Source: an uncultured Methanosarcinales archaeon
GTDB taxonomy: Archaea; Nanobdellota; Nanobdellia; Woesearchaeales; SKGA01
Direction: 5' to 3'
DNA: 39,669 bases
NCBI GenBank assembly: GCA_964498515.1
Contig: CAZCGV010000001.1
Span: forward strand, 1-39,669
In this document: positions 591 through 38,668 of the stretch, piece after piece
Position numbering within the stretch: the stretch's first letter is position 1
Layout: each line of letters opens with the position of its first letter
Made by a program: the position numbers and the translations under genes
Notes under the pieces: model-generated
The model's input: the letters and a program-made list of their open reading frames with translations, nothing else
What the model was told of the DNA's origin: nothing
Database searches by the model: none

Positions 591-1256
591 TTACCTCGAT
601 AATTTTGATTCTATTTCCATGAATTTGTTTTGTAGATTTTCTAAATCTGTTACTCCTTTGCTCATTGCTTTTGAACTTCTTGTTAATATTGTGGAATATT
701 TAGTTACGTCTGTATTTTGTGATTGTAATGTGTTTTGTATGTTTTTTAAATTCAATATCATGTCTGAATAAGTTTTTTTAGAGACGAAAAATGAATCTTG
801 TGTTTCTTTTCTTAGAAAGTCTGAGCCATATTTTGGTGCTTCCATAAATTCGGTTTGTATTTCATCTTCGAATGAAGGTAATCCACTTAATAGATCGTCT
901 GCATCTTCTTCTGGTTCGGGTTCTTCAAGAGATTTAGTTTCTACTGCGTGATTTTCTTCAGGAAGTTTTTTATCTATTTCTGGCAAATCTTCAACTGAAT
1001 GTTCTAATTGCTCAACTTCTTCATCTGAAAGTTCGTTTAAACTTAAATCAGATTCTTCAGAGGGTATTGAACTGTTTGAATCTTCAATCATTTCAGGTTC
1101 TTCAGAAGGTATTGAAAAGTAATTTTCTTGAGGCGTTTCATCGATAATCGGAGGTTTTTCTGGATTTTTTAAATTTAAATCTAGACTAGAAAAGTCATTT
1201 TCTTCATCCAATTTAGGATATTCTTCTTTTTTCTTAAAGAAATTAAATAAGCCCAT
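591..1256 (-). CDS. hypothetical acidic protein (221 aa): N-terminal amphipathic helix, long D/E/S/P-rich linker, C-terminal helical module
   Basis: N-terminus MGLFNFFKKK. Residues ~20-140 are strongly acidic and low-complexity. C-terminal ~70 aa (SFFVSKKTYSDMILNLKNIQ...FMEIESKLS) resembles the two downstream small ORFs. Confidence 0.55.
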   Translation of the reverse strand: MGLFNFFKKKEEYPKLDEENDFSSLDLNLKNPEKPPIIDETPQENYFSIPSEEPEMIEDSNSSIPSEESDLSLNELSDEEVEQLEHSVEDLPEIDKKLPEENHAVETKSLEEPEPEEDADDLLSGLPSFEDEIQTEFMEAPKYGSDFLRKETQDSFFVSKKTYSDMILNLKNIQNTLQSQNTDVTKYSTILTRSSKAMSKGVTDLENLQNKFMEIESKLSR

Positions 1257-1394
1257 TCCACACCTCTTTTAATATTACACCTGGCAAGAGTATTAAAATG
1301 TTTCTTACCACTGATGAATGAAAATCACACAATCCGAAATATTTCCGGATTTTTGAAAGGTGGTTTAATATTGGAGTTTAATAAAAGTAATTTT

Positions 1395-3000: not shown

Positions 3001-3594
3001 ATGAAAGATAAAGAAATCAGAGAATACATTGAAAAGAAATATTTGCGTATAAATACTATTTTTGAAATAATTGGTCACCCTAAAGAACATGTAGAATCAA
3101 CCATGAAGCTATATGTTGAAAACATAAAAAAGGATTCAGATATTGTTGTTATTAAAGAAGAATATGAGCCTGCGGAAAAACTTGAAGGCGATGTTTTTGG
3201 AGTTATTGCTGAAGTCGATATGCTTGTTAAAAATATTGAAAAGTTAACTTGGTTGTGTGTTAATTTTTCGCCTGCTTCAATTGAATTAATTGAACCTGAT
3301 AAAATAATTATCGAACAAAACGATGTAACTCATTGGTTGAATGATTTTTTATCTAAACTTCACGAGATTGGAGTTGCACAAAAAAAAATTCAATCAGATA
3401 ATGAAGGATTAATTAGAAATTTTAACGCGATGACTAGAAATGCCATCTTACTTGTTTTAAAAGAACCTTCAGATATTCAAACTATAAGTAAACATATTGG
3501 TATGGAAGACAAACATACTGAATTGTTTGTTGAAAAATTAATAAAGGAGAAAAAAATAGTTAAAGAAAAGAATGTTTATCATTTAATACATTGA
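3001..3594 (+). CDS. hypothetical protein with probable C-terminal winged-helix domain
   Basis: 197-aa ORF 13 nt upstream of scpB on the same strand. The C-terminal segment NAILLVLKEPSDIQTISKHIGMEDKHTELFVEKLIKEKKIV looks like a wHTH. No ScpA/kleisin N-terminal motif recognised. Confidence 0.55.
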   Translation: MKDKEIREYIEKKYLRINTIFEIIGHPKEHVESTMKLYVENIKKDSDIVVIKEEYEPAEKLEGDVFGVIAEVDMLVKNIEKLTWLCVNFSPASIELIEPDKIIIEQNDVTHWLNDFLSKLHEIGVAQKKIQSDNEGLIRNFNAMTRNAILLVLKEPSDIQTISKHIGMEDKHTELFVEKLIKEKKIVKEKNVYHLIH

Positions 3595-3607: not shown

Positions 3608-4501
3608 ATGTCGAAAGAACTTGAAAATCAAATTGAGGCAATTTTATTTGCATCTGGAAAGGGCGTTGCTATTTCTGAAATTGCTAAGATTGTTGATGAA
3701 TCGGATAAAAAGATTCTTAATGCATTGAAAAATTTGGAAAAAGAATACTCTACTAGAGATAGTAGTTTGCAATTAGCGCCTAAAGAAAATAAATGGAAAT
3801 TAACGGTTAAAAGCAAATATGTTGAATATATTGAGAAGTTAGTTAGTGAAACTGAATTACCTCAATCAATATTGAAAACTTTAGCAATGGTTGCTTTTAA
3901 AAGTCCTGTTTTACAATCGGAAATCGTTGATATGCGAGGTCAGAGTGCATACGATCATATTAATATTTTAACAAAAGAAAAATTAATAACTAAAGACCCG
4001 AAAGGGCGTAGTTTTGTTTTAAAAATAACTGATAAATTCTATCAATATTTTGATGTTGAAGGGGATGAAGAAATCAGGGATGTTTTTGATAAGTTAAGAA
4101 CGGAACAAATACAAAAATTAGGAGAATTAGATGTTGTTGATGTTGACCCTGAAGAATTGAAAAATAAAAATTTAAAAGAGTTTGATGATTCGGGTGAATT
4201 TAAAAATTTAGAGGGCTTAAGTGGTTTAGAAGTTGTGGATTCTAGTGAAGAAGAATCTAGTGTTGAAGATTTTAAAAAACAAAAAGATGAAGAAAAGGAA
4301 ACTCAAAAATCGTTTCTTGCAGACATAGATTCTCAAATAGATACTATTTCAAAAAGATTAACTGAGCACGGAGAAATTACCCCTCCTAAAAAAGAGGAAG
4401 AAAAAACTGAGGAATCTGAAGAAAAAACTCCTTTGGAAGAATTGAATGACTTTGCTGATGAACAAGAAAAAAAAGAGCAAAAAGAGGAGGATTTTCTTTA
4501 A
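3608..4501 (+). CDS. scpB: segregation and condensation protein B (ScpB)-like, with long acidic C-terminal extension
   Basis: N-terminal IEAILFASGKGVAISEIAKIV and second wH LKTLAMVAFKSPVLQSEIVDMRG...GRSFVLKITDKFYQYFDV match the ScpB tandem winged-helix signature. Residues ~165-297 are E/D/K-rich low complexity. Confidence 0.75.
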   Translation: MSKELENQIEAILFASGKGVAISEIAKIVDESDKKILNALKNLEKEYSTRDSSLQLAPKENKWKLTVKSKYVEYIEKLVSETELPQSILKTLAMVAFKSPVLQSEIVDMRGQSAYDHINILTKEKLITKDPKGRSFVLKITDKFYQYFDVEGDEEIRDVFDKLRTEQIQKLGELDVVDVDPEELKNKNLKEFDDSGEFKNLEGLSGLEVVDSSEEESSVEDFKKQKDEEKETQKSFLADIDSQIDTISKRLTEHGEITPPKKEEEKTEESEEKTPLEELNDFADEQEKKEQKEEDFL

Positions 4502-4748: not shown

Positions 4749-7250
4749 TTGGAAGAAGAAAATATAGATATAAAAATGGATGTCGATGACGGTAATATTA
4801 TCGATGGAATTTTAGAAGACGAGATGAAAAGCGCATACTTAGATTATGCGATGTCTGTTATAATTGGTCGTGCATTACCTGATGTTCGAGATGGCTTAAA
4901 ACCAGTTCATAGAAGAATTCTATATGCTATGAATGACATGGGTATTACTTTCAATAAATCATATAAAAAATGTGCGAGAATTGTTGGGGAAGTTTTGGGT
5001 AAATATCATCCTCATGGTGATTCTGCAGTTTACGAATCGTTGGTTCGTATGGCTCAAGAGTTTTCTTTAAGATATCCTTTAGTTCAAGGTCAAGGAAACT
5101 TTGGTTCTGTTGATGGAGATAATGCTGCTGCTATGAGGTATACTGAAGCACGTATGTCTAAAATTTGTGATGAAATGTTGAAAGACATAGAAAAAGAAAC
5201 GGTAAATATGCGGCCTAATTTCGATGAGAGTTTAGAGGAGCCAATAGTGTTACCAACTAGACTTCCTAATTTATTGATTAATGGTTCTAATGGTATTGCG
5301 GTGGGCATGGCCACGAATATTCCTCCACATAATATTTCTGAAGTTGTTGATGCTTCGATTAAAGTTTTAGATTGTCCTGATGTTAATGTAGAAGACTTAT
5401 TTGAACTTGTTAAAGGTCCTGATTTTCCAACTGGCGGAATTATTTTAGGTAACGCCGGTATAAGGCAAGCTTACTTGACGGGTAGAGGCAAATATAAGAT
5501 TAGATGTAAATCACATATTGAAGAAAAAAATGGGCGTAAAAGATTAATTGTTACTGAAATTCCTTATCAAGTAAATAAATCTGATTTGCTTGAACAAATT
5601 GCTGAAGAAGTTAAAGAAAAAAAAGTTGAAGGCATTAGCGACATTAGAGATGAAAGTGATCGTAAGGGTATGCGTATTGTTTTTGAATTGAAAAAAGATG
5701 CTAATGAGGAAGTTGTGCAAAATCAACTTTTCAAACATAGTAGATTACAGGTAGGAACGGGAATAATTTTACTTGCGATAGTGGACAATCAACCGAAAGT
5801 TCTGAATTTGAAAGAAATTTTAGAACATTTCATAAATCACAGAATTGAAGTGGTTAAAAGAAGGACTGCTTTTGATTTGAAAAAAGCTTACAAAAAAGCA
5901 CATATTTTGGAAGGATTGGCAATTGCTTTAAACCACATAGATGCAGTTATTAAATTAATAAAAGAAGCAGATAATTCTTCGGATGCAAAAGAAAAATTAA
6001 AAGAAATCTATTCTTTGAGTGATGAGCAAAGTCAAGCGATTTTAGATATGAAATTGCATCGTTTAACTGGTTTGGAACAATCCAAAATTAAGAGCGATTA
6101 TGAAGAAACTAAAAATTTAATTGCTGAGCTAGAATCAATTTTAGCAAGTGAAACCAAAATAAGAGGTGTTGTTAAATCTGAGCTTGAAGATGTTAAAGAA
6201 AGATATCAAGATAATAGAAAAACAGAAATTGTTGATTATTATGAAGATGATTTAGATATGGAAGATTTGATTCCTGAAGAAGACCAGATTTTAACACTAA
6301 GTGCTTCAGGATATATTAAAAGAATAAATATGTTGTCTTACAGGGTTCAAAACCGTGGTGGGAAGGGCGTTATAGGAGTTACAACTAAAGAAGAAGATGT
6401 TATTGAACATTTATTTATCGCTAGCACGCATTCATATTTACTCGTATTTACTAATAAAGGAAATGTTCATTGGTTAAAAGTTTGGAAGATTCCTGAAGGT
6501 GGACGACAAGCTAAAGGAAAAGCAATCATAAATTTAATTAATCTAGGCGAGAATGAAAATGTGGCCGCAGTTATTCCTGTACGAGAATTTGATGAAAACC
6601 ACCATTTAATTTTGGCCACTGAAAAAGGCGTTGTTAAAAAAACTAATTTGATGGCTTATTCAAGACCTAGGCAAAATGGAATAATTGGTATAAATTTAGA
6701 TGATGGTGATAAAGTCATTAATGCTGTTTTGACTGATGGTCAACAAGAATTACTTATTGCTACAAAAAAAGGTCAAGCAGTTAGATTTAATGAAAAGGAT
6801 GCTCGTTGTATTGGAAGGACAAGCAGAGGTGTTAGAGGAATAACATTGGCACCTAATGATTCAGTCATTAGTATGATTTTATTAAACCCTGTTGAAACTA
6901 TTTTAACCGTTACTGAAAATGGTTATGGTAAACGAACACGCATAGAAGATTATCGTTTGATTAATCGTGGTGGGAAGGGCGTTAGAAATATTATTTGTAG
7001 TGAAAGGAATGGAGACGTTGTAGCAGTAAAGGGTGTTGATGATTCTAAAGATATTTTGTTGATTTCAAAACAAGGAATAATAATTAGAACCAAGGCATCT
7101 CAAATAAATGTTATTGGAAGAAACACTCAAGGAGTGCGCTTGATGAGGTTAAAAACTGAAACAGATAGAGTGCAAAATGCCACTGTTGCTGAACATGATG
7201 AAATTGCAGAAAGTGTTGATATTATTGATGAAGATAAATCTTTAGAATGA
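4749..7250 (+). CDS. gyrA: DNA gyrase subunit A
   Basis: [74 protein letters not shown] and [10 protein letters not shown] (catalytic Tyr region), plus C-terminal beta-pinwheel repeats. Start is the TTG at 4749 or the ATG at 4776. Confidence 0.95.
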
Positions 7251-7676: not shown

Positions 7677-8363
7677 ATGGATATAAAAGTTAGTACAGGT
7701 ATTGGTTGTTTTGATTGGTTATTAGAGGGTGGTTTTGAGAAGGGAGTAATCACCACAATTTATGGTCCAGCTGGTAGTGGCAAGAGTAACATTTGTTTGT
7801 TGTTTACTAAAGAGATAACTGAGGGTAAAGTTATTTTTGTGGATACAGAAGGTTCTTTTTCTGTTTCGAGATTTAGACAAATTTGTACAAATGTAAAAGA
7901 GTCTATGGAAAACATACTTTTTCTTAATCCTACTACGTTTGATGAACAAAAAAAGGCATTTAAGAAATTAAATGAATTAGTTAATAGTAAAATTAGTGCA
8001 ATAATTATCGATTCCATTGCAATGTTATATCGTTTAGAGATGGGTAAATCTAAAAATGTTTATGAAGTTAATCGAGAATTGGGAATTCAATTGGGACAAC
8101 TAACTGAATTCGCTAGGAAAAAAAACATTCCTGTTTTAATTACAAATCAAGTTTATGCGGATTTTGAACAAAAGGGAAAAATAAATATTGTTGGCGGGGA
8201 TTTGTTGAAGTATCAAAGTAAATGTTTAATTGAGATTAAAAAAGAAGATGGTTTGAGAAAAGCTGTGATTCGTAAACATCGTTCTATTGAAGAAGGTAAA
8301 GAAGTTATTTTCAAAATAACTGATGCAGGCATAGAAGAAATAAAATTAGAAGAATATAAATAA
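7677..8363 (+). CDS. radB: RadB, RecA-superfamily recombination/repair paralog
   Basis: 228 aa. LLEGGFEKGVITTIYGPAGSGKSN (Walker A), VIFVDTEGSF, AIIIDSIAMLYR (Walker B region), VLITNQVY and a C-terminal FKITDAGIEE. Colinear with euryarchaeal RadB and lacking the RadA N-terminal HhH domain. Confidence 0.85.
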   Translation: MDIKVSTGIGCFDWLLEGGFEKGVITTIYGPAGSGKSNICLLFTKEITEGKVIFVDTEGSFSVSRFRQICTNVKESMENILFLNPTTFDEQKKAFKKLNELVNSKISAIIIDSIAMLYRLEMGKSKNVYEVNRELGIQLGQLTEFARKKNIPVLITNQVYADFEQKGKINIVGGDLLKYQSKCLIEIKKEDGLRKAVIRKHRSIEEGKEVIFKITDAGIEEIKLEEYK

Positions 8364-28639: not shown

Positions 28640-29623
28640 CTAATTACCTTGTTTTGATTCCACACTTACATACTCAATTGTAGGTAATGCTGGTTGCTTT
28701 GTCGTTCTTAATGGCGCTGTTAAATGAATTAATCTTTTTGAAGGACCTGGTACAGAACCTTTAATTAAAAGATATTGTGATTTAACATTTCCAAATCTTA
28801 CAAATCCACCTTTAGGATTTACTTTATCTAAATCGTCAGATATCATCAATATTTGATTATTATATTGTGTTCTTTGATGAAACCCCATTTGACCGGCATA
28901 TGCAATACGATACATTACATGACCTTGACCTTTCCATGGACCTAATGAACCAGGTGCCCTTATGGTTTTTTCAGATTTATGCGATCTTATGCTTACTCCA
29001 AATCGTTTTACTGGACCTTGAAAACCTTTTCCTTTAGTTACAGACCTTAAATCAACAACTGAACCTTCAGAAAATGCATCTTTTATTGAAAAACCAGACT
29101 CTAAATGATTTTTTATGTAATTTATTTTTTCTTCATTAGAACCACCAAAAGACATTTCAAAAACATCAGGTGTTTTTTTACCTAAATTTGTTTTGATTGG
29201 TTGAGTTCTAACTACTGCAGTTATGTCAAGAACATCGGTTAAATCTAATTTATCTAAATCTTCCAGGGAAGAAATTTTTGAAGAAATTTTTGTTTTCCTT
29301 ATTAATTCTTTATCGTGCTTGAAAAATAGTTCTTGATTAACAGAGGATCCATAACCATTTGCCTTATATGTTCTAACACTTACAAGTTTAATATTTGGAC
29401 ATTCTATAACTGTTACTGGATAAGATACTTTATCGCCTTTAGTAGGTGAATTTTTTTGAGAATCTATTCCAATTAAATGAGTCATTCCGACTTTGTAGCC
29501 TGCGAAAACTAAAGGTTTAACTTCAGTCACTATTGGTAAAGATCTAACTCTAGCATAAGCTCTAGTTGCTCTTTTACGAGGCCAAAATTGCATACTTCCG
29601 TGACGAGGATTTACTCTTTTCAT
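28640..29623 (-). CDS. rpl3: 50S ribosomal protein uL3
   Basis: PRHGSMQFWPRKRA...FAGYKVGMTH...KGKGFQGPVKRFGV...GQMGFHQRT. First gene of the cluster. Confidence 0.95.
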   Translation of the reverse strand: MKRVNPRHGSMQFWPRKRATRAYARVRSLPIVTEVKPLVFAGYKVGMTHLIGIDSQKNSPTKGDKVSYPVTVIECPNIKLVSVRTYKANGYGSSVNQELFFKHDKELIRKTKISSKISSLEDLDKLDLTDVLDITAVVRTQPIKTNLGKKTPDVFEMSFGGSNEEKINYIKNHLESGFSIKDAFSEGSVVDLRSVTKGKGFQGPVKRFGVSIRSHKSEKTIRAPGSLGPWKGQGHVMYRIAYAGQMGFHQRTQYNNQILMISDDLDKVNPKGGFVRFGNVKSQYLLIKGSVPGPSKRLIHLTAPLRTTKQPALPTIEYVSVESKQGN

Positions 29624-29644
29624 TTATATCATACTCTTTGTGTT

Positions 29645-29681
29645 TTTTCAGAAACAGTAGTTATACTGTTAGTACTGAAAA
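29645..29681 (-). other. nested hairpin in the putative uL3-operon leader
   Basis: TTTTCAG (29645-29651) pairs with CTGAAAA (29675-29681). AACAGTA (29653-29659) pairs with TACTGTT (29664-29670), and CAGTA can alternatively pair with TACTG at 29673-29677. Read directly. Confidence 0.5.
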
Positions 29682-29760
29682 TGGACTTATTTCCAGGCAG
29701 CACATCATATACTAATAATGAATATTATTATTGAAGTGAAATGATAGAAAAACTAGTTTC

Positions 29761-29768
29761 TTTATAAA
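29761..29768 (-). promoter_or_regulatory. candidate TATA box (TTTATAAA) for the uL3 operon
   Basis: Palindromic TTTATAAA ~140 nt upstream of the uL3 ATG, the strongest TATA-like element in the 242-bp spacer. A closer weak AGTATAA (~ -40) also exists, so the TSS is unresolved. Confidence 0.35.
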
Positions 29769-29803
29769 TGTTTTGCTTATTTTTATTTATTTTGGACATA
29801 TAA

Positions 29804-29853
29804 GCTCTTTTTAGGGTTTTTTTGTTTAAGGACGCTCTTTTTAGGGTTTTTTT
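29804..29853. repeat. two exact 20-bp direct repeats GCTCTTTTTAGGGTTTTTTT (29804-29823, 29834-29853; 30-bp period)
   Basis: Read directly. Lies between the primase gene stop (29866) and the candidate uL3-operon TATA box. Confidence 0.85.
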
Positions 29854-29865
29854 TGAAAATAAAGG

Positions 29866-31881
29866 CTAAATATTTAATTTGAGAATTTCTTGTATTTCTT
29901 TTGAAAATACGTGTTCGTCTTGTTTTAGTTTTCTTAATAACTCTGATTTGGAAAACCATTTTATTTCTTTGAAGGAATTGGAAGGATTAAAGTTGTTTAT
30001 GTGCCTATCAACTACCGCATAAAAAAAGTAATTGAATTTATTTTCAGTTTTGATTAAATTTTTAGGCAATTTTAATTCTCTTGGAAAGAATGTTCGTAAT
30101 CCAAGCTTCTCTTTAGCAATTCTTTTTAATGAATTTACTTCCGTTTCTTTTTTTTGGACAAAAGTTTGTAAAGGAAAAATCCAGATATCAGTTATGTCTT
30201 TTACCAATAATAAACCATCTGCACTATTTTTTATAATTAGAACACATTTTCGAATTAAATCTTTTTTTGTGATTTGGTCTAATTTTTTATATTCTTTTTG
30301 TATGTTTTTTTCATCCACAATTAAAATGTATGGAATAGTTTTCTCGATTTTATTTTTAGGTTTTAATTTTTTAGAAGGATTTAATTTAGATTTATTTTGA
30401 GCATATTGAGAGGGATTTTTTATGTGTTGACAAAATTCATCTGGAGAACATATTTGAATTGCTTCGTAGTAAGATTTATTTGAACAGCTTGGGGGGAGAA
30501 TAGGTTTTTTTCCTTGTTTAATTTGACTTAATTGTCCTTTTATATATTGTTCTCTCAAAGGTTCGGGATTTTTTGAATTCCACTCATGAACATACTCTTC
30601 GATTTGTTCTAAAGACCAACCAACCATTCTTAAAAAATTTAATAAAACAAATAGGGCTCTTTTTTTACCGTCTTGAAGTCCTTTTGTAATTTTTTGAATA
30701 CAAGGAGGAAAGAATTCTTCAGATAGAGCATTTGGAGGTAGTTCTATTTCTTTTTGTATATTTTCAATTTTACGATTGTATTCTTTGAAAGAGGAATCAA
30801 AGGATAATAAAACTAATTTCGATGCTTCCCCTTGCTGAGCTTTTTCTCTAAACATAAATCTTTTCTCGAAAGAACAATGTTCAGGTTGGGCTGATTCTTT
30901 TTTGAAATTTAAAATTTCAGATTTATCTACAGGAATTGAAACTAATTTTGATTTTTCATGTAAAGAATACGGCATACGGTATAGATGTCTTGAAGCTATA
31001 AGTATTGTGTCTACATCTACAACTGCAAAAAAATTGAAAATTTTATCAAATTTGGTAGGAATTTTACAGTATTTACATATGTTTTTTTCGATGTTTGGTT
31101 GAACAGGATAACCACAAGAAGGACAGGGTAAAATATCTATTTTTGTTTTTGAGTTAAAAGATTTTCCACATTTAATACAAGTATAAGATAATTTTGAACT
31201 TTTAGGTGACTCTTCGGAAATTGATTTACATTTTTGACATCGATAAGCTATTAGAGAATGCGAATTTTTTTTTGCGATAGCTTGTAGTTGTTTAAAAGAA
31301 AACTTAAACTGATCTAAAAAAACAACATACTCATTATTAATTTTTGCAAAATTTTCAGTTATGTAGCTTAACAAATACAAAGCTATTTTTCTTGCCCCCT
31401 CTGGAAATAAATTTTTGAAAAATACAGTTTGACCTTCATAAGATACTTTTTGAGGAAAAGCTTCAAATGGAACCGCAATATGGAATCCTTTGTTACCTGA
31501 AAATTTACAAAAAATCGTTTTTACACCATGTGCTTCCAAAGCCTTAATAAATAAGTGTGTTGTTAGTTTGGATAATTCCCACTCAGGACAATCAATGTCT
31601 AAGATTAGATCCCATCCTTTCCTTAAATCATCTAATTCGCGTCGTTTCATACCTGTACTTAAAGCTAAAGGATTAAACCACAATTCTTCTGAACAATGAA
31701 AAGAAGTCGCTTTCTTTTTTGCTAATTCTAAAACATCATTTTCATATGTTAAAATGTCTGGTCGTTTTCCAAATCCTTCATTTATAAATCTAACAGAGCA
31801 TTCTTTATCTTGGGCCTCTCTAACAATTGCAGATTGAACTTCTTTGCGTTTATAATACATTAATGAAAAAGACAGGTCCAT
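29866..31881 (-). CDS. fused archaeo-eukaryotic DNA primase: PriS catalytic domain + PriL C-terminal Fe-S domain + C-terminal degenerate Nudix-like domain
   Basis: The AEP domain has WDLILDIDC (DxD), FSGNKGFHIAVPF and SRHLYRMPYSLHEKS. Two CxxC pairs of zinc ribbons (CQKC/CIKC, CPSC/CKYC). PriL-CTD-like FFPPCIQKI...RALFVLLNFLRMVGWSLEQI...PPSCSNKSYYEAIQICSPDEFCQHIKNPSQY (4 Cys). Residues ~515-660 contain WIFPLQTFVQKKETEVNSLKRIAKEKLGL (Nudix-box-like) and KEIKWFSKSEL. Confidence 0.8.
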   Translation of the reverse strand: MDLSFSLMYYKRKEVQSAIVREAQDKECSVRFINEGFGKRPDILTYENDVLELAKKKATSFHCSEELWFNPLALSTGMKRRELDDLRKGWDLILDIDCPEWELSKLTTHLFIKALEAHGVKTIFCKFSGNKGFHIAVPFEAFPQKVSYEGQTVFFKNLFPEGARKIALYLLSYITENFAKINNEYVVFLDQFKFSFKQLQAIAKKNSHSLIAYRCQKCKSISEESPKSSKLSYTCIKCGKSFNSKTKIDILPCPSCGYPVQPNIEKNICKYCKIPTKFDKIFNFFAVVDVDTILIASRHLYRMPYSLHEKSKLVSIPVDKSEILNFKKESAQPEHCSFEKRFMFREKAQQGEASKLVLLSFDSSFKEYNRKIENIQKEIELPPNALSEEFFPPCIQKITKGLQDGKKRALFVLLNFLRMVGWSLEQIEEYVHEWNSKNPEPLREQYIKGQLSQIKQGKKPILPPSCSNKSYYEAIQICSPDEFCQHIKNPSQYAQNKSKLNPSKKLKPKNKIEKTIPYILIVDEKNIQKEYKKLDQITKKDLIRKCVLIIKNSADGLLLVKDITDIWIFPLQTFVQKKETEVNSLKRIAKEKLGLRTFFPRELKLPKNLIKTENKFNYFFYAVVDRHINNFNPSNSFKEIKWFSKSELLRKLKQDEHVFSKEIQEILKLNI

Positions 31882-31929
31882 GATAAAATAAAAACTAACT
31901 TAAATATAAAACTAATGATAATTAAGCAT

Positions 31930-33657
31930 TTAACGTATTAGCGATTCTAACTTAATTATGTCTTCTTCTAATTTTTTAAATGCGCCATTCCAAAAAGATT
32001 TATCATTTACATCTATTCCTGCGTTAGCTAATATTTCTTCCACATCTGCGTCTCCACCAGAACTTAATATTTTTAAATATTTTTTGACAAAACTACTTCC
32101 CTCTTCAAGATATTTAGAATATAATGCGAACACTAAAAGATTGCCAAAGGCATAAGCGTAACAATAAAAAGGCGTCTCATAAATGTGTGGTATTCTCAAC
32201 CACTCATACTTAAAAATAGTGGGTACGTTCATTTCATTTCCAAACTGCTCTTTTAATAAATCATAATATTTTTGATTTAGTTCATCCACACTTACCCCTT
32301 TAGAAATAAGTTTGTGTGCTTCAATTTCAAAAAGTACAAAATAAGTTTGTCTTAATATGCTTGCAAAAGCAGAGCTTATGTGATGAAATAATAAATATTT
32401 TTTTTCTTCCTTTGATGAATTTTTTAATAACTCTTCTGTTAAAAGTAATTCAGAGAATATGCTTGCAGTTTCGGCTAAAACAAGGGATGAATGATATGTC
32501 ATTTGAGTTTTATCTTTTGCTAATTGTCCATGTATTCCATGACCTAGTTCGTGTGCCATAGTTAGCATTGAATTTAAATCATCCGTGTGATTTAATAATA
32601 TGTATGGAACTTCATCTTTTCCATAAGAATAACAAAAAGCTCCTCCTCGTTTTTTTTCTGAAATTTCTGAATGTATGTTGTTTTGGTCAAAAATATTTTT
32701 AGCTAAGTTTTCAATTTTAGGCGAGAAATCTTTGAAAGTTTCTAAAACTATTTTTTTTGAAATGTTGAACGAATATTTTTTATTTGATTTTAATTTATAA
32801 GGTGTGTAGATATGGTATCTTGAATTAAGTATTTTCAAAATTTTAGATTTCAATTTGAAAAATTTTTGAAATATAAATCGTTTACTTTTTATTAAATCCA
32901 ACAACATACTAATTGTTTTATCTGAAAGTGTGTTTGAAAAATTCCTTGCAGAAATGGATGAAGAATAGTTTCTTATTTTAGTCATTTCATTAGACCAATC
33001 TAACGATAAGCCTTTGTAAATCTCAGCAAAAACATCTTCGTTTTTTTCGTATTCTAAAAATAAAGATTTGTATGCTTGTATGTTGTTTTTTGGTAGAGGG
33101 TCCATAAAATATTTATTTAGTTCTGTTTCAGATAATTTTTTGTTTTTAAATTTAAACTTTAATTTCGATGAAATTATGTTTCGAAGAGTGGTTAAAGTTT
33201 GTTGTCCACTCAAATCTTTAATATTTAATATTTTTTCTTCTTCAATGGAACGCATGTGTATTTTGGCATCCCTTATAGATTGGAAACAATATTTATATTT
33301 TCCTAATTTGGAATAAATTGTATGTGCTTTTTTCTCATTTAGATTTCGTATAAATTCACTTACAAATAAAATTTTATTTTGATTTTGTGTTAATAATGAA
33401 TCTAATTTTTGTAATTCTTTTATTGTTTTTTTATCTTCTTGATTTTCACAATGTTTGAGGTATGTTTTAACATATAGTTTATTTGAAATTTGATTGATCT
33501 TTTCTTGAATTTTAAAAATTTGAATTAACTCTTTTTCTCCACAAGATTTAATTTTTTTTTGAAAAGAAATTAATTTTTTTACTTGTTTGTCGAGATCTGA
33601 AAGTAATTTAGTTTTTTCACCTTCTTTATAGATATTGTTTAAGTTCCATTTGACCAT
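31930..33657 (-). CDS. pepF: oligoendopeptidase F (M3B family metallopeptidase)
   Basis: HExxH zinc motif MAHELGHGIHG, a downstream LAETASIFSE (third ligand Glu region), and ~575-aa length typical of PepF. Confidence 0.8.
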   Translation of the reverse strand: MVKWNLNNIYKEGEKTKLLSDLDKQVKKLISFQKKIKSCGEKELIQIFKIQEKINQISNKLYVKTYLKHCENQEDKKTIKELQKLDSLLTQNQNKILFVSEFIRNLNEKKAHTIYSKLGKYKYCFQSIRDAKIHMRSIEEEKILNIKDLSGQQTLTTLRNIISSKLKFKFKNKKLSETELNKYFMDPLPKNNIQAYKSLFLEYEKNEDVFAEIYKGLSLDWSNEMTKIRNYSSSISARNFSNTLSDKTISMLLDLIKSKRFIFQKFFKLKSKILKILNSRYHIYTPYKLKSNKKYSFNISKKIVLETFKDFSPKIENLAKNIFDQNNIHSEISEKKRGGAFCYSYGKDEVPYILLNHTDDLNSMLTMAHELGHGIHGQLAKDKTQMTYHSSLVLAETASIFSELLLTEELLKNSSKEEKKYLLFHHISSAFASILRQTYFVLFEIEAHKLISKGVSVDELNQKYYDLLKEQFGNEMNVPTIFKYEWLRIPHIYETPFYCYAYAFGNLLVFALYSKYLEEGSSFVKKYLKILSSGGDADVEEILANAGIDVNDKSFWNGAFKKLEEDIIKLESLIR

Positions 33658-33689
33658 GACTCCTTAGAAGAAGAAAGCATTTAAAAAAC

Positions 33690-35939
33690 TTACTTTGTAG
33701 TTTTAGAATAGTCTAAATTAAGAATTCTTAAAATTTCATCGGCTTTTTTCTCACCCAATTTATCTATTTTCATCAATTGTTCTTTATTCGACTGAAGAAA
33801 AGATTTTATTGTTTTGAAATGATCCATTATTTTTTTTGCTAGAGCAGGTCCAATAGTTGGAAAAGAAGATACAATATATTCTTGAAGTTCTGCATCCTCT
33901 AATGGTTTGGCGGTATGAAATGTGAATGTATTAGTTTTATTTTCTTGTTCTTTTTTTGCGAAAGCAATTAATAACCTCGCAGATTCGATATAATTTTTAG
34001 TTCTAAATACAGGTATTTTGTATGATAATCCTATTGTTGCCAACATTCCGTCAATCGCAGAAGGATCCACATTTCTAATTTTGTATATGTCTTCTTCTCC
34101 CTCTATGAGTAATATAGGTTTTGAATATTGTGTTATTGATTTTAATTGAACCAATAAGCGACCATCAATAATAGAATCGACAAAATCTTTTACATTTTTG
34201 AATTCAACAACAACATCACTAGAGATTAAAAAATCGCCGACCGATAATTGTTTTAATTTCAAATCAACATTTTCTGTGAGTAAACGTTTAACTAAATCTG
34301 AACCTTTTTCTCTGTGATCAACATACATTGTTAGTTTTTGGTGTGGTTTTGTGAATGAATGTAAGGATTTTTGAGGGGAGTTTTGTGGAATGATTGAGAT
34401 GTCTGTTAAAACTTTAAACATAGTTTTTTCTTTGTGATGTGAAGCCCACCTATATGCTTCATCTCGCGTTCCTTTAGATATTAAGATAGTTACGTTTCCT
34501 TTTGAATGTCTTCCAGTTCGACCCCTTCGTTGTACTGAACGAATCGCACTAGGTATTGGCTCATAAAAGAAAACATGATTTACAGAAGGGATGTCTAAAC
34601 CTTCTTCTGCAACACTTGTTGCAATTAAAACTTGAAATTGGTTTTTTGTGAAATTATTAAGTATTTCTTTTTGTTGCTTTTGTGAAAAACCGACACCATT
34701 CTTTTTAGATTGACCAAAAAAAATATTTGAAGAACATATATTATTTAATTCTTCTTTTAGTTTTGAAGCAGTATCTCTGAATTGCGTGAATATTATTATT
34801 TTGGATTGAGGATTTTCTTCTAACAATTGTTTGAGTTTAGTTTTTAAAAAAATTATTTTTGGGTGAATTTCATTATTTGAGATCGCATTTCTTATTGTAG
34901 CTAAAGATGAAACAAAATTAACATCTTTAACTAAATTTTGTATGGATTTGGCTTTAGATATTCTGCTTTTTGAGAATATTCCTGACATATATTGATTTGC
35001 TGCGAAAAGAGATTGACTTTCCAATAATTCTAAAGAATGATTTAATTTAATTAATTCAGCTAAAACACTCATAGAAATTAATTTAGTGTGATCTATGTTT
35101 CCTTGCGCAATAGATTGTTGTATTTCTCGTTGAGCTTTTAAAATATCTAAATTTGAATTGAAAGATGTTTTTTTAAATCCCATCTCAGCCAATTTATTTT
35201 TTCGAAGTGTTACGCATTTATTCAGATAAGCGATGGCTTTATTTATTTCAGGAGTTAAATAAATTTCTTCCCAAATTAAATCAGTTATTTGTGTATATTT
35301 TTGTACATCTTCATCTTTTGAGGATTTAAATTCAACATTGGATATATGTAAGTTTTTACATATTTGTTCCACCTCTTCTTTTTGTGAACCAGGGGATGCG
35401 GAAAGAGCTAGAATTAAAGGTTCTTTTTGGGTTTCCATATATTTTTGTGCTAAAAAAACATATGCGTAATTTCCACTCGCTCTATGTGCTTCATCAAAAA
35501 TAACTAAAGACACATCATCGAAATTAAAATTCCTTGATATGACGTCATTTTCTATAGTTTGGGGGGTTGAAAAAATAAATTTAGTATTTTGATATAGTTG
35601 TTTTCTTTTTTCAGGAGATATTGTTCCAGTAAATAAATTAAAATCTGTTTCAGGGAATAAAAATTGTTTTTTGAAAGAATTTAGTTGTTGTTCGGCTAAA
35701 GGTTTTGTAGGTGCTAGAAATAAAATTTTGCTTTTTGGAAAAAGAAGTAATCGTTTAGCCGCTAATAACATAGCTATTGCTGTTTTGCCCAATCCTGTAG
35801 GTAGAACAACCAATGTGTTTTGGGTTTGAGAATGTTCATATAAGTCTAATTGATATTTTCGAGGGTTAAAAGATTTTAGCATAAACTTAAACTTATTTTT
35901 AAGTTTATAAATTTTTAGGTGAGTTGACCAGTGTGGCAA
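33690..35939 (-). CDS. hef: Hef-type helicase-nuclease (SF2 helicase + XPF/ERCC4 nuclease + (HhH)2)
   Basis: Helicase motifs are VVLPTGLGKTAIA, VIFDEAHRA, SASPG, TSVAEEGLDIP and QRRGRTGR. The nuclease has VDHREKGS...LSVGDFLIS...VVEFKNVKDFVDSIIDGRL (ERK motif reads EFK). C-terminal HhH is FPTIGPALAKKI...IDKLGEKKA. Start is at 35939 or the ATG at 35882. Confidence 0.85.
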   Translation of the reverse strand: MPHWSTHLKIYKLKNKFKFMLKSFNPRKYQLDLYEHSQTQNTLVVLPTGLGKTAIAMLLAAKRLLLFPKSKILFLAPTKPLAEQQLNSFKKQFLFPETDFNLFTGTISPEKRKQLYQNTKFIFSTPQTIENDVISRNFNFDDVSLVIFDEAHRASGNYAYVFLAQKYMETQKEPLILALSASPGSQKEEVEQICKNLHISNVEFKSSKDEDVQKYTQITDLIWEEIYLTPEINKAIAYLNKCVTLRKNKLAEMGFKKTSFNSNLDILKAQREIQQSIAQGNIDHTKLISMSVLAELIKLNHSLELLESQSLFAANQYMSGIFSKSRISKAKSIQNLVKDVNFVSSLATIRNAISNNEIHPKIIFLKTKLKQLLEENPQSKIIIFTQFRDTASKLKEELNNICSSNIFFGQSKKNGVGFSQKQQKEILNNFTKNQFQVLIATSVAEEGLDIPSVNHVFFYEPIPSAIRSVQRRGRTGRHSKGNVTILISKGTRDEAYRWASHHKEKTMFKVLTDISIIPQNSPQKSLHSFTKPHQKLTMYVDHREKGSDLVKRLLTENVDLKLKQLSVGDFLISSDVVVEFKNVKDFVDSIIDGRLLVQLKSITQYSKPILLIEGEEDIYKIRNVDPSAIDGMLATIGLSYKIPVFRTKNYIESARLLIAFAKKEQENKTNTFTFHTAKPLEDAELQEYIVSSFPTIGPALAKKIMDHFKTIKSFLQSNKEQLMKIDKLGEKKADEILRILNLDYSKTTK

Positions 35940-36620
35940 TCATAATATTTTTAAAAATCCAGCTTTAATTTCATATATTTCACCCATAGAAATTAGTAAA
36001 GTTATGGTTTTTTGAATATCTTGACCATAAAAATCAATTATTTGTTGTGTTGAACAACCATCGCCTGAATCATTTTTTTTTATAAACGCAATTAAATTAT
36101 CAGGAGTTATTTCTTTTTCATCATAATTCTCTATTGAAGGTACTTCAAATTCAATTACATTTGGAGTTTCAATATATTGTGATTCTTCTTCAATCAAATC
36201 AAATTCTTGGTGATTTAGATTTTCAAATGTATCTAAATAAGATTTTCGAAATTCGAACCATTTTTTATTTGAATGTATTTGGTTTTTGTTGAGTATTTCA
36301 CTAACTAAACACAACGAGTTTTCATATTCTCTTATTCTCGCAATAACTAAAATAGAGTCACTAACATTTAAATTATTTTTTTGAATTTCATCCGAAAAAC
36401 AATTAACAGTTATCGTTGCAGTACCATCATCTAATAAAAATTTTGTAGGAGATTCTATTTTAACAACCAACCCTATTGTGTTTAAACGAGAAATTTTACC
36501 AAATTTAGAATCGACGTAGTTAGGATTCCACCCTTCTTGAATAACATATTTTCCTGAGATTAAATATTTTAATGGAATCTTTTTTGCAACTTCTCGTTTA
36601 AATTTATTTTTATTTTCCAT
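35940..36620 (-). CDS. RPA32/Stn1-like protein: OB fold plus C-terminal winged helix
   Basis: OB signature ISRLNTIGLVVKIESPTKFLLDDGTATITVNCF...SDSILVIARIREYENSLCLVSEIL. The C-terminus GCSTQQIIDFYGQDIQKTITLLISMGEIYEIKAGFLKI resembles the RPA32C/Stn1 wH (G-x-IY motif). 5 nt after mcm and abutting hef. Confidence 0.6.
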   Translation of the reverse strand: MENKNKFKREVAKKIPLKYLISGKYVIQEGWNPNYVDSKFGKISRLNTIGLVVKIESPTKFLLDDGTATITVNCFSDEIQKNNLNVSDSILVIARIREYENSLCLVSEILNKNQIHSNKKWFEFRKSYLDTFENLNHQEFDLIEEESQYIETPNVIEFEVPSIENYDEKEITPDNLIAFIKKNDSGDGCSTQQIIDFYGQDIQKTITLLISMGEIYEIKAGFLKIL

Positions 36621-36625
36621 TTAAA

Positions 36626-38668
36626 TCACAATCTAGATATGAAATCTTTTTTAGGACGATAAATGTCCCCACTTCTACTTAATTTTTCAATAGTTTCTTC
36701 TATTTTAGACAACTCTATTCCCTTAGCTTCACATTCTTTTATAACATCCGCTAATGGAAGTATTTTTTTCATAGTTATATTCTCTAAATTGATTAAAACT
36801 TCTTTGACAATGGCGATATGACTTCTTTGGCTTGCAGTTATTCCTGTTGTAATTCGATCTATATCTAATTTTCCAGTTTCAGGATCCAACATGATTTGAC
36901 CTAACGAATAATGCAATAAATTTATTGCTCTTTTAGCATCTTCTTTATTTGCAACTTGAGATAATCTTGCTTTTGCACATGCTTCGGTTAAACGAATTAA
37001 TGCCTCTAATTGACGAGCTGTAATTGGAACGGATTTTATTCCACCTGTATCGCTACCGGAATTTCTTATTTTAACATAATATTTTTCTATTTCTTCGAGA
37101 GCATCATTAGTTAGTTTAGGAAAAACATTTTTCTTCGCGTATGCAATATATTTTTTTAATAAATTTGTATCAATATCCACATTTTTTTCCGTTCGGGTAC
37201 TGTCTTGATGTAAATTTAAAATAAATTTTGCGATTTGAGTATCTTTTTCTCGATCTGGAACATCTCTAACAGGAAACATTAAATCAAAACGAGACATTAA
37301 TGCAGGAGGTAATTCAATTTGTTTTCCTAGAACCTCATATGGATCAAATCTTCCGTATTTAGGGTTAGCTGCTGCAAGTACGGTTGTTTGACATCTTAAA
37401 GTTGCTTGTATGTTCGCTTTACTAATAGTTACGGTTTGTTGTTCTAACGCTTCGTGCATCGCAGAACGATCTTCAGTCGTCATTTTATCTAACTCATCAA
37501 TGCAAACACAACCATTATTTGCTAGAACCAAGGCTCCTGCTTCTAATGCCCATCCTTTCAAAAAATCATCTTTTATAACTGCTGCAGTCAATCCTGCACC
37601 AGATGCCCCTTTTCCAGAAACAAATCTTGATTTAGGAGCTATTACGGAGATTCTTTTTAATAACTGACTTTTTGCAGCACCAGGATCCCCGACCAATAAA
37701 ATGTGTATATCTCCTCTTGTTTTTATTCCATCACTTCTTGGTTTTTGGATGCCTCCAAATTGTTGTAATAATAGTGCTTCTTTTATTTTTTCATAACCAT
37801 AAATTGATGGAGCTAGGTTTGTAACTAAATCTTTAATTAAGGTTGGTTTTTGAGATAATTGAATTATTTTTTCTTCTTCTTCAGGCGTTATAATTACAGC
37901 TCCAAAGTCTTCTTGTAAAGGTTCAACATGATTTCCATCCAATATTAAATCAAATTCAACAGATTTGCCTCCACTTGAGAGCGAAATAGGTATTTCAGAA
38001 ACCACGCCAACCAATCTAATTTGGCTGCCCGGATTTGTTTTTTTCTCACCTATGGGGCTAACTAAATCGTGTTGAAGCAAAACTTTGAAACGCTTTGCTT
38101 GTTCTCCACCATCTAAATTTTCAGTAGGTTCTTCTAAAACTATTTTTTGTATATCTATTAATTCTTTATCTAATAATTTGAATCCTCCTTTTCTACCACA
38201 ACCACATTGGGAGGGTTCTCTGAATTTTTCATCAACTTGTATTATATTCATTATATTTCCACAAGAAGGACATTCAAATTTTGCAGAAATGGCTTTAGGT
38301 CTTACATCTCCCTTTTGACGTATAACTCCGTCCACTTGTATGAGTTTACCTATATGTTTACTTCGAATATTTCTTATAGATACTTTTTGCGCTAAAGGAA
38401 TATTTTTGAATCGTACAAAAAATTCTTTTTGTTTTTTATCTTCATGTAGATCTAATCTTTCAATAGATAAGCTTGCAGTTTTAAAACATTCTTCAGGATA
38501 ATCTAATACTTTTTGCGCTAATTCAGGATTGAAAACCGCTAAATCTTGAAAATCAACTATAATGTAATTTTCACCTCTTTGTAAAGCGGAAATTAAATTC
38601 TCATAATAGAATTTCTCGAAAAAATTTTGAAATATTTTTAATTGCTCCCCCACATCCATTATTTGCAC
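36626..38668 (-). CDS. mcm: minichromosome maintenance (MCM) replicative helicase
   Basis: Zinc motif CPSCGN...CGCGRKG, Walker A GDPGAAKSQLLK, Walker B CVCIDELDKM, arginine finger SRFDL, and a C-terminal wH. 680 aa with no intein-sized insert. Confidence 0.95.
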   Translation of the reverse strand: MQIMDVGEQLKIFQNFFEKFYYENLISALQRGENYIIVDFQDLAVFNPELAQKVLDYPEECFKTASLSIERLDLHEDKKQKEFFVRFKNIPLAQKVSIRNIRSKHIGKLIQVDGVIRQKGDVRPKAISAKFECPSCGNIMNIIQVDEKFREPSQCGCGRKGGFKLLDKELIDIQKIVLEEPTENLDGGEQAKRFKVLLQHDLVSPIGEKKTNPGSQIRLVGVVSEIPISLSSGGKSVEFDLILDGNHVEPLQEDFGAVIITPEEEEKIIQLSQKPTLIKDLVTNLAPSIYGYEKIKEALLLQQFGGIQKPRSDGIKTRGDIHILLVGDPGAAKSQLLKRISVIAPKSRFVSGKGASGAGLTAAVIKDDFLKGWALEAGALVLANNGCVCIDELDKMTTEDRSAMHEALEQQTVTISKANIQATLRCQTTVLAAANPKYGRFDPYEVLGKQIELPPALMSRFDLMFPVRDVPDREKDTQIAKFILNLHQDSTRTEKNVDIDTNLLKKYIAYAKKNVFPKLTNDALEEIEKYYVKIRNSGSDTGGIKSVPITARQLEALIRLTEACAKARLSQVANKEDAKRAINLLHYSLGQIMLDPETGKLDIDRITTGITASQRSHIAIVKEVLINLENITMKKILPLADVIKECEAKGIELSKIEETIEKLSRSGDIYRPKKDFISRL

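What the first reader, a model, noticed from the sequence alone, without database searches (positions are those of the whole stretch)
29866..31881. Single-chain primase: PriS + PriL Fe-S domain + an appended degenerate Nudix-like module
Residues 1-~345 carry all AEP catalytic motifs (DIDC, SGNKGFH, RMPYSLH), plus two CxxC-pair zinc ribbons where PriS normally has one. Residues ~385-495 match the PriL C-terminal 4Fe-4S domain (FPPC...PPSC...QIC...EFC..IKNP.QY, four Cys). No separate priL is seen nearby. To my knowledge PriS/PriL-CTD fusions have been reported in Nanoarchaeum equitans and some mobile-element primases. The additional ~150-aa C-terminal domain looks new. It has the Nudix beta-grasp pattern (IWIFP...) and a box aligned as T-x5-E-x7-R-I-A-x-E-K-x-G-L, which retains E, R, E and G but loses two consensus Glu and the first Gly. 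It could sense or bind nucleotides (NTP/dNTP or nucleotide-sugar) or cap 5' ends rather than hydrolyse.
Basis: partly seen in the sequence, partly recalled or inferred. Interest (0 to 1): 0.7.

Follow-up and report, generated by a model that had tools for sequence, protein, structure and literature searches.

The report
DPANN primase with dead Nudix domain
This is the ordinary single-chain DNA primase of a tiny DPANN archaeon which, in one small clade only, has picked up a catalytically dead, positively charged copy of a common Nudix enzyme at its tail; that is a real but modest new variant of a known enzyme.

Summary
ORF 29866..31881 (-) encodes a 671-aa protein with three domains that all pass Pfam's cut-offs: PriS, PriL C-terminal Fe-S domain and NUDIX.

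The PriS–PriL fusion is not new. It is the published shared trait of Undinarchaeota and DPANN Cluster 2, and I found more than 4,600 homologues. The gene is chromosomal, in a conserved Hef, M3 peptidase, primase, ribosomal-operon neighbourhood.

The C-terminal domain is the only unusual part. It models confidently as a Nudix fold (pLDDT 88.7; TM 0.77 to DR0079 and YfcD). It descends from a free-standing ~165-aa Nudix family common in DPANN and CPR organisms. It was acquired once and is known from five lineages. It has lost the catalytic Glu residues that are 95–97% conserved in that family. Its charge has flipped (pI 9.0–9.7 against a family median of 5.2), and four of its ten newly invariant residues are basic. 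It remains under purifying selection.

It is best read as a pseudo-enzyme reused as a binding module, probably for nucleic acid or nucleotide. That function is inferred, not shown. A sister group carries a GrpB domain at the same site. Novelty: new variant of a known kind. Interest is moderate.

The parts
29866..31881 (-). Whole gene: single-chain primase with appended pseudo-Nudix domain, 671 aa plus stop codon (29866-29868)
   Evidence: ORF list. 100% identical to database protein P0001. Full-length AF2 model has mean pLDDT 90.7.
30847..31881 (-). PriS-type AEP catalytic module, aa 1-345 (motif I D95/D97, motif II H134, motif III D291, RMPYSLH 302-308)
   Evidence: PF01896 39.4 bits against cut-off 26.8. 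D95, D97, H134 and D291 are invariant in 75 homologues. Foldseek matches human Pri1 and Prim-PolC.
31057..31251 (-). Insert in PriS with four CxxC pairs (C215/218, 235/238, 253/256, 269/272), read as two zinc ribbons
   Evidence: Positions. All eight Cys are at least 90% conserved in 75 sequences. Weak similarity to the DZR and Zn_ribbon Pfam models and to the eL43 zinc ribbon in PDB, E about 3e-3. Metal binding is inferred.
30730..30846 (-). Linker between the PriS and PriL-CTD modules, aa 346-384 (flexible core 366-377)
   Evidence: pLDDT below 50 at residues 366-377. Fast evolving.
30391..30729 (-). PriL C-terminal 4Fe-4S domain, aa 385-497 (Cys 394, 466, 478, 484)
   Evidence: PF04104 26.9 to 30.3 bits against cut-off 22.4. 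NCBIfam PriL models match their C-terminal parts. The four Cys are at least 90% conserved. The family profile hits PDB PriL 9f26_B at E 4.8e-8. The cluster itself is inferred.
30337..30390 (-). Lysine-rich flexible linker, aa 498-515 (pI 10.4), the remnant of the K-rich tail that ends the short primases
   Evidence: pLDDT below 50 at 509-513. dN/dS about 1 in the distant pairs. Short relatives have a tail of median 39 aa with K+R 39%.
29869..30336 (-). Pseudo-Nudix domain, aa 516-671: Nudix fold of the YfcD/IDI-like branch, catalytic residues lost, basic
   Evidence: PF00293 24.5 to 28 bits against cut-off 21.1. AF2 pLDDT 88.7, pTM 0.82. Foldseek 2o5f TM 0.77 at E 1.5e-9, and 2fkb. Profile hit to free-standing Nudix P0121 at 6e-30. 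The reverse profile hits this domain at 1.7e-21.
30097..30165 (-). Degenerate Nudix box, aa 573-595: T-x5-E-x7-R-I-A-K-E-K-L-G-L
   Evidence: Column-by-column comparison of the five primases with 149 relatives. It lies on helix 581-593 of the model.

Best explanation
The gene encodes the chromosomal replicative primase of a Woesearchaeota/Nanoarchaeota-type DPANN archaeon.

Shown:
- It is the single-chain PriS + PriL-CTD enzyme typical of DPANN Cluster 2, with intact AEP catalytic residues, a double CxxC zinc insert and the four Fe-S cysteines.
- In the ancestor of one small clade (five known lineages), a copy of a free-standing ~165-aa Nudix gene of the YfcD/IDI-like branch was joined to its 3' end. 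This gene family is common in DPANN and CPR genomes. The new domain replaced most of the lysine-rich tail that normally ends the protein.
- The attached copy kept the Nudix fold but lost the Nudix-box glycine and the metal-binding glutamates. It also shortened the loop before the conserved Trp.
- It switched from acidic to strongly basic and fixed ten new invariant residues, four of them basic (K586, R596, R601, R626).
- It has stayed under purifying selection, weaker than on the primase core.

Inferred:
- It no longer hydrolyses anything.
- It serves as a tethered, non-catalytic binding module next to the PriL-CTD, the domain that in other primases holds the initiating NTP and the primer's 5'-triphosphate.
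- The likeliest ligand is nucleic acid (template DNA or the RNA-DNA primer end). A free nucleotide is the second choice.
- On this reading it supplements or replaces the role of the basic tail in template or primer affinity, primer-length control or hand-off.

Confidence by step: architecture and single origin about 0.95; catalytically dead about 0.85; binding-module role about 0.45. The overall figure of 0.6 is for the statement as a whole.
For: Architecture: all three Pfam domains score above their cut-offs. The catalytic Asp/His and all twelve cysteines are conserved in 75 homologues. The full-length model has three confident modules and two floppy linkers and matches both Nudix and primase structures.

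Known fusion: PMC7414124 and the biochemistry of NEQ395 in PMC10250227. There are 4,651 homologues, mostly 510-550 aa.

Chromosomal, not an artefact: the same Hef, M3 peptidase, primase, L3 operon order is found in five lineages and in a short relative.

Nudix fold: pLDDT 88.7, TM 0.77 to DR0079/YfcD.

Parent family: 628 profile hits. The only primase among the 150 best-scoring hits listed is this clade's own representative. Members are named from DPANN and CPR phyla and fall in the YfcD/IDI-like branch.

Dead active site: relatives have E77 in 142/149, E80 in 144/149 and E81 in 145/149. The five primases have IILDE, ESEDN and KNKIQ at those positions. Of the 20 family-conserved positions, 11 are lost.

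New role: pI 9.0-9.7 against a family median of 5.2, plus ten new invariant residues.

Selection: for window vs P0002, dN/dS is 0.28 in the domain, 0.06-0.08 in the core, and about 1 in the linker for distant pairs.

Single origin: the clade is recovered in 100/100 bootstraps on the core columns.

Attachment site: the K-rich tail of the short forms.
Against: No ligand or binding has been shown; the function rests on composition and analogy. Lysine richness is general in this AT-rich genome (PriS pI 9.1, PriL-CTD 8.7), so part of the charge shift may be compositional. dS is near saturation, so the dN/dS values are rough. Only five sequences define the conserved set. The model's pTM of 0.59 gives no confident docking of the domain onto the primase. 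Losing the metal-binding glutamates would also weaken binding of a pyrophosphate-containing ligand, which argues against simple NTP sensing. The domain evolves 3-4 times faster than the core.
Confidence: 0.6

Rival explanations
1. The domain is a protein-protein docking or purely structural module, or a slowly decaying passenger with little function, kept mainly because it sits in an essential gene.
For: It evolves much faster than the core (identity 32-64% against 64-90%; dN/dS 0.28-0.9). It occurs in only five lineages. More than 4,600 relatives do without it. A sister group carries an unrelated GrpB domain at the same site, which suggests the C-terminus tolerates additions.
Against: The fold is still predicted with high confidence from five diverged sequences. 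29 columns are invariant at 33-63% identity. Ten new residues became fixed and the charge was reversed. The adjoining linker shows what neutral drift looks like here (dN/dS about 1, identity 11-25% in distant pairs), and the domain is clearly more constrained than that.
Confidence: 0.25
2. The domain is still an active Nudix-type hydrolase using non-canonical residues, for example to trim 5'-triphosphates or to clean the nucleotide pool at the fork.
For: Pfam NUDIX scores above its cut-off in three of the five. The window protein keeps E579, R587 and E591. D541 and E602 are invariant. Some Nudix-fold enzymes such as IPP isomerase work without a canonical box (my own knowledge; these are among the Foldseek hits).
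Against: No Nudix-box acidic position is conserved among the five: E81 in 0/5, E77 in 1/5, E80 in 2/5, E68 in 2/5. No Cys or His is invariant, so an IPP-isomerase-type site is excluded. Only two acidic residues are invariant in the whole domain. The domain is basic, while active relatives are acidic.
Confidence: 0.08
3. The long ORF is an artefact (frameshift, chimeric assembly or read-through of two genes), or the gene is a mobile-element primase and not the cellular one.
For: It comes from metagenome-assembled genomes. The linker is low-complexity and A-rich.
Against: Five lineages from separate assemblies at 54-77% identity all have one uninterrupted ORF with linkers of different sequence. 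The neighbours are core genes in conserved order: Hef, M3 peptidase, the L3/L4/L23/L2 operon and MCM. There is no integrase, repeat or tRNA nearby. No other primase gene is in the window.
Confidence: 0.02

Closest known systems
Fused PriS-PriL primase of DPANN Cluster 2 / Undinarchaeota (biochemically studied example: Nanoarchaeum equitans NEQ395)
   Same: One chain carrying the AEP catalytic domain followed by the PriL C-terminal Fe-S domain. The PriL N-terminal domain is absent. It is the only primase seen and it is chromosomal. The window protein is a clear sequence member of this family (4,651 hits; literature).
   Different: NEQ395 is 393 aa and ends after the Fe-S domain. The Woesearchaeota-type members are about 530 aa, with a double CxxC insert and a K-rich tail. 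This clade adds a 156-aa Nudix-fold domain.
Free-standing YfcD/DR0079/IDI-like Nudix hydrolases (about 165 aa) of DPANN and CPR organisms
   Same: Homologous over the whole domain (E 6e-30 and 1.7e-21 in the two directions). Same fold, including the N-terminal beta-hairpin (TM 0.76-0.77 to 2o5f and 2fkb).
   Different: The free-standing proteins have an intact box (G, E, K/R-E-A-x-E-E-x-G-L at 89-97%), a longer loop before the Trp, and are acidic (median pI 5.2). The primase copy has lost these and is basic.
MutY C-terminal domain (a Nudix-fold, MutT-like domain without hydrolase activity that reads 8-oxoG in DNA); also NrtR regulators and the TRPM2 NUDT9-H domain
   Same: These are examples, cited from my own knowledge, of a Nudix fold stripped of catalysis and reused as a ligand- or DNA-reading module attached to another functional domain. 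It is the same kind of reuse proposed here.
   Different: There is no specific sequence relationship. Pfam's MutY-type model NUDIX_4 does not hit this protein. The partner enzyme here is a primase, and the ligand is unknown. This is an analogy of mechanism, not membership.
GrpB-bearing fused primases (P0011, P0022, P0041, P0042)
   Same: Same primase family and the same attachment point after about 20 aa of the basic tail. The added domain is also from a nucleotide-handling superfamily.
   Different: Unrelated fold (PF04229 GrpB). A separate clade or clades in the primase tree.

Membership tests
Archaeo-eukaryotic primase catalytic subunit (PriS, PF01896) | Profile match above the curated cut-off | tested here: met
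   39.4 bits against 26.8, aa 101-319
Archaeo-eukaryotic primase catalytic subunit (PriS, PF01896) | Catalytic motifs I (hhhDhD), II (sxH) and III (hD) | tested here: met
   LILDIDC with D95/D97, SGNKGFH with H134, VVDVDT with D291. All four are invariant in 75 homologues. Motif definitions are from PMC10250227.
Archaeo-eukaryotic primase catalytic subunit (PriS, PF01896) | AEP fold | tested here: met
   The full-length model matches human Pri1 (6r5e, 4bpu) and Prim-PolC (6sa1) at E 7e-6 to 3e-5
Archaeo-eukaryotic primase catalytic subunit (PriS, PF01896) | Primer synthesis on ssDNA | not testable with these tools
   Needs a biochemical assay
PriL C-terminal Fe-S domain (PF04104, C-terminal part) | Profile match above the cut-off to the C-terminal region | tested here: met
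   26.9 bits, or 30.3 alone, against 22.4, profile positions 89-218 of 266. Five NCBIfam PriL models match their C-terminal thirds. PDB PriL 9f26_B at E 4.8e-8 with the family profile.
PriL C-terminal Fe-S domain (PF04104, C-terminal part) | Four conserved cysteines for a 4Fe-4S cluster | tested here: met
   C394, C466, C478 and C484 are each at least 90% conserved in 75 sequences. Cluster binding itself is not testable here.
Canonical full-length PriL | N-terminal helical domain that docks on PriS | tested here: not met
   Only profile positions 89-218 of 266 are matched, and the NCBIfam matches start at model positions 193 or later. This is as expected for the fused DPANN form.
Fused PriS-PriL primase of DPANN Cluster 2 | Both domains in one chain, as the only primase, in a DPANN genome | tested here: met
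   Single ORF. No other priS or priL in the window. Homologues are named Woesearchaeota, Nanoarchaeota or Nanobdellota. The family is defined in PMC7414124. The rest of the genome could not be checked.
Nudix fold superfamily (PF00293) | Alpha/beta/alpha Nudix fold and profile homology | tested here: met
   24.5 to 28 bits against 21.1. All of the 50 best of 481 Foldseek PDB hits at E<=0.001 are Nudix-fold proteins, best TM 0.77. P0004 and P0005 fall below the Pfam threshold but align throughout.
Nudix hydrolases (active enzymes) | Nudix box GX5EX7REUXEEXGU with the metal-binding Glu of REUXEE | tested here: not met
   The window protein has T-x5-E-x7-R-I-A-K-E-K-L-G-L. Across the five orthologues the positions read G: TTGSF; E: EESQT; R: RRKKK; E: IILDE; E: ESEDN; E: KNKIQ. 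Relatives are 89-97% canonical at these positions.
Nudix hydrolases (active enzymes) | Pyrophosphohydrolase activity | not testable with these tools
   Needs an enzyme assay
YfcD / DR0079 / IDI-like branch of Nudix | Closest profile and structural relatives; N-terminal beta-hairpin extension | tested here: met
   Best PDB by sequence is 2fkb YfcD at E 0.02. Best by fold are 2o5f and 2fkb. The nearest free-standing relatives score best on the YfcD, Nud_hyd_Meth and IDI models, but far below the equivalog cut-offs, so this places the branch and does not establish equivalog membership.
Type 1 IPP isomerase | Conserved catalytic Cys/Glu and His metal ligands | tested here: not met
   No invariant Cys or His among the 29 invariant columns of the five domains

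The most novel reading that the evidence does not exclude
The dead Nudix domain has been turned into a specific reader that regulates priming in a minimal replisome. It might read the primer's 5'-triphosphate end, the RNA-DNA junction, or a signalling nucleotide. It would then control primer initiation, primer length or hand-off to the polymerase, much as MutY reuses a Nudix fold to read a base in DNA. Together with the GrpB-bearing sister primases, this would show that DPANN archaea tune their single-chain primase by bolting nucleotide-handling domains onto its tail.
Probability: 0.2. Interest if true: 0.6.

Novelty: new variant of a known kind. Interest (0 to 1): 0.35.

Why it matters
Single-chain DPANN primases have been proposed as minimal, tractable models for the eukaryotic/archaeal primase (PMC10250227). 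A natural version with an extra, non-catalytic nucleotide-fold domain tethered next to the Fe-S domain offers a ready-made comparison, with and without the domain, for asking how template or primer-end binding limits priming. It is also a clean, datable example of an enzyme turned into a pseudo-enzyme: the active site is lost, the charge is reversed and new residues are fixed. The effect is confined to five known lineages, and no function has been demonstrated, so the importance is modest.

Tried and rejected
- **Word-index search with the C-terminal domain alone:** it found nothing, not even the query's own cluster. This is a limit of the tool and carries no biological meaning. The exhaustive profile search replaced it.
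- **Frameshift or assembly artefact:** rejected, because five independent ORFs share the same synteny.
- **Mobile-element primase:** rejected, given the core-gene neighbourhood, no tRNA, no Rfam hit and conserved gene order.
- **Nudix gene captured from the adjacent position:** not supported. The short relative P0014 has the same neighbours and nothing between the primase and L3.
- **IPP-isomerase-like activity:** rejected, with no conserved Cys or His.
- **More members:** scans of GTDB species genomes and JGI metagenomes only re-found P0002, P0003 and P0004.
- **Bacterial promoter/terminator scan:** at chance level, and not applicable to an archaeon.
- **Failed scripts:** the first dN/dS script failed on a file name and the first tree script timed out. 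Both were rerun successfully.
- **Domain docking:** the full-length model gave no confident placement (pTM 0.59, and no PAE output is available), so I make no claim about an interface.
Full report
**Observation.** The window holds an uninterrupted 671-codon ORF at 29866..31881 on the minus strand. Eighteen cysteines are present, including four CxxC pairs (215/218, 235/238, 253/256, 269/272) and the four Fe-S candidates (394, 466, 478, 484). Pfam finds three domains, each above its curated cut-off. PriS (PF01896) scores 39.4 bits over aa 101-319. PriL (PF04104) scores 26.9 bits over aa 373-488, matching only the C-terminal part of the model. NUDIX (PF00293) scores 24.5 bits over aa 547-655, or 28.0 when the C-terminus is scanned alone. 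NCBIfam PriL equivalogs match through their C-terminal thirds only.

**Context.** The window has about 30% G+C. Downstream of the gene lie ribosomal proteins L3, L4, L23 and L2 and the rest of the large ribosomal operon. Upstream lie an M3 oligopeptidase, a Hef-type helicase-nuclease, a 226-aa protein with no family, MCM and TBP. Elsewhere in the window are RadA, a RadB-like protein, GyrA, ScpB, SecY and aRF1. No tRNA or Rfam element is present. This is a core chromosomal region of a DPANN archaeon; homologues are labelled Woesearchaeota, Nanoarchaeota or Nanobdellota. No other priS or priL is in the window.

**The PriS-PriL fusion is known.** A search of 5.8 billion proteins returned 4,651 significant homologues, and nearly all of the 120 listed are 500-560 aa and cover about 75% of the query. 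[quoted passage not shown] The N. equitans enzyme NEQ395 has been shown to be an active monomeric, Fe-S-containing primase (PMC10250227). In an alignment of 75 family members, D95, D97, H134 and D291 are invariant. All eight zinc cysteines and all four Fe-S cysteines are at least 90% conserved. The 'two zinc ribbons' are thus a family trait. The family profile hits a solved PriL (9f26_B, E 4.8e-8), and the zinc insert weakly resembles the eL43 ribbon.

**The C-terminal domain is a Nudix fold.** A model of aa 512-671, built from only five sequences, reached mean pLDDT 88.7 and pTM 0.82. Foldseek against the PDB gave 481 hits at E<=0.001. Every one of the 50 best hits listed is a Nudix-fold protein, led by D. 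radiodurans DR0079 (2o5f, TM 0.77, E 1.5e-9) and E. coli YfcD (2fkb), then IPP isomerases, RppH and Dcp2. The full-length model (pLDDT 90.7) shows three confident modules separated by low-confidence linkers at 366-377 and 509-513. Its pTM is only 0.59, so the relative placement of the modules is undetermined. It matches both Nudix proteins and primase catalytic subunits.

**Where the domain came from.** A profile of the five C-terminal domains was searched against 1.84 billion representative proteins and found 628 hits. Of the 150 best-scoring hits listed, the only primase is this clade's own representative. The others are free-standing proteins of about 165 aa (best P0121, E 6e-30) or fusions to unrelated domains. 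These relatives are named from Woesearchaeota, Pacearchaeota, Aenigmarchaeota, Nanohaloarchaea, Nanoarchaeota and several CPR/Patescibacteria phyla. They score best, though below equivalog cut-offs, on the YfcD, 'Nud_hyd_Meth' and IPP-isomerase models. A profile built only from free-standing members finds the primase C-terminus at E 1.7e-21 and nothing else in the window.

**The active site is gone.** In the 149 relatives the Nudix-box positions are canonical: G 140, E 133, K/R 145, E 142, E 144, E 145 and G 139 of 149. The five primase copies read TTGSF, EESQT, RRKKK, IILDE, ESEDN, KNKIQ and GGGGG at those positions, and the loop before the conserved Trp is shortened. The glutamates that remain in the window protein are therefore not conserved in its orthologues. 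Of the 20 positions at least 80% conserved in the family, nine mostly hydrophobic or structural ones are kept. Eleven are lost, including every functional box residue. No Cys or His is invariant, which excludes an IPP-isomerase-type site.

**Signs of a new role.** Ten residues are invariant in the five primases but rare in the family: G556, P570, K586, R596, T597, F598, R601, E602, V624 and R626. The domain's pI is 9.0-9.7, against a family median of 5.2. Nei-Gojobori estimates have dS near saturation and are therefore rough. For window vs P0002 they give dN/dS of 0.06 (PriS core), 0.08 (PriL-CTD) and 0.28 (Nudix-like domain). The linker before the domain is about 1 in distant pairs. The domain is therefore constrained, though less than the core.

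**Distribution and origin of the fusion.** Full-length relatives are P0001 (the window), P0002, P0003, P0004 and P0005, at 54-77% identity. A scan of one genome for each of 185,579 species found three of them, and a metagenome scan re-found only P0002. All have the same neighbours. On the primase core columns alone they form a clade in 100/100 bootstraps, which indicates one acquisition. A short relative with identical synteny has no Nudix gene next to the primase, so the donor was not the adjacent gene. Short primases end in a lysine-rich tail (median 39 aa, K+R 39%). In the fused forms about 20 aa of this tail remains as the linker. One orthologue is already auto-annotated 'NUDIX domain-containing protein'. 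No paper in the library mentions the fusion.

**Interpretation.** The evidence shows a standard DPANN single-chain primase carrying a clade-specific, catalytically dead, basic Nudix-fold domain on a flexible basic linker next to the PriL-CTD. I infer that it is a binding module, most likely for nucleic acid or a nucleotide, that supplements the basic tail. By analogy with MutY's non-catalytic Nudix-fold domain (my own knowledge), such a module could read a feature of the template or primer. The rival readings are a docking or passenger domain (0.25), residual hydrolase activity (0.08) and an artefact or mobile-element gene (0.02).

**Verdict.** The fusion itself is ordinary for this lineage. 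The pseudo-Nudix addition is a real, rare and unreported variant with no demonstrated function. I rate interest at 0.35.

Noticed in passing
Related proteins P0011, P0022, P0041, P0042 (not in the window): A second group of the same fused primases carries a GrpB-like domain (PF04229; 39.3 bits in P0011, sub-threshold in P0022 and P0042) at the same C-terminal attachment point. P0022/P0041/P0042 form one clade (100/100), while P0011 nests among short forms. This suggests either two gains or one gain followed by losses.
   Followed up: partly
C-termini of about 104 short homologues (P0006-P0120): The ordinary ~530-aa primases of this family end in a lysine-rich, presumably disordered tail (median 39 aa, K+R 39%, D+E 11%) after the Fe-S domain. 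Its role is unknown.
   Followed up: partly
window 28640-38668 and loci L001, L002, L003, L007, L008: Gene order is conserved: MCM, small protein with no family, Hef, M3 oligopeptidase, primase, then the L3/L4/L23/L2 ribosomal operon. This links replication genes to the ribosomal operon across genomes at 54-77% primase identity. In L003 a PolD large-subunit gene replaces MCM upstream.
   Followed up: partly
window 35940-36620 (-), 1314-2945 (+), 591-1256 (-), 3001-3594 (+), 14043-14660 (+): Five sizeable ORFs have no Pfam match at E<=0.001. The 226-aa one lies between Hef and MCM, and a no-family gene (265 aa) occupies the same position in L002.
   Followed up: no
L007 (CAYSFC010000011.1): This contig is titled 'uncultured Methanosarcinales archaeon' but carries the DPANN-type fused primase (identical to P0004) in the Woesearchaeota-type neighbourhood. 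The taxonomic label is probably wrong.
   Followed up: no
P0034: A 520-aa partial copy of this archaeal fused primase is labelled 'Simkania sp.' (a chlamydial bacterium) in NCBI. This is probably contamination or mis-binning of a 2.7-kb contig.
   Followed up: no
window 4749-7250 (+), 3608-4501 (+), 7677-8363 (+), 12445-13380 (-): The archaeal window encodes a bacterial-type DNA gyrase A subunit and ScpB. It also has two RecA-family genes: a full RadA with an HhH domain, and a shorter RadB-like protein.
   Followed up: no
window 31057-31251 (-), aa 211-275: The double CxxC insert of the primase gives weak but repeated matches to the eL43/L37ae ribosomal zinc ribbon (E about 3e-3 to 9e-3 with the family profile; Pfam Ribosomal_L37ae at E 0.15).
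   Followed up: no
Proteins P0124, P0125, P0129, P0133, P0134, P0151, P0158: The active free-standing Nudix family is itself fused in other organisms to various partners, including what look like alpha/beta-hydrolase-like, GDSL-like, HAD-like and folylpolyglutamate-synthase-like regions. These labels come from reading the sequences only and were not tested with profiles.
   Followed up: no
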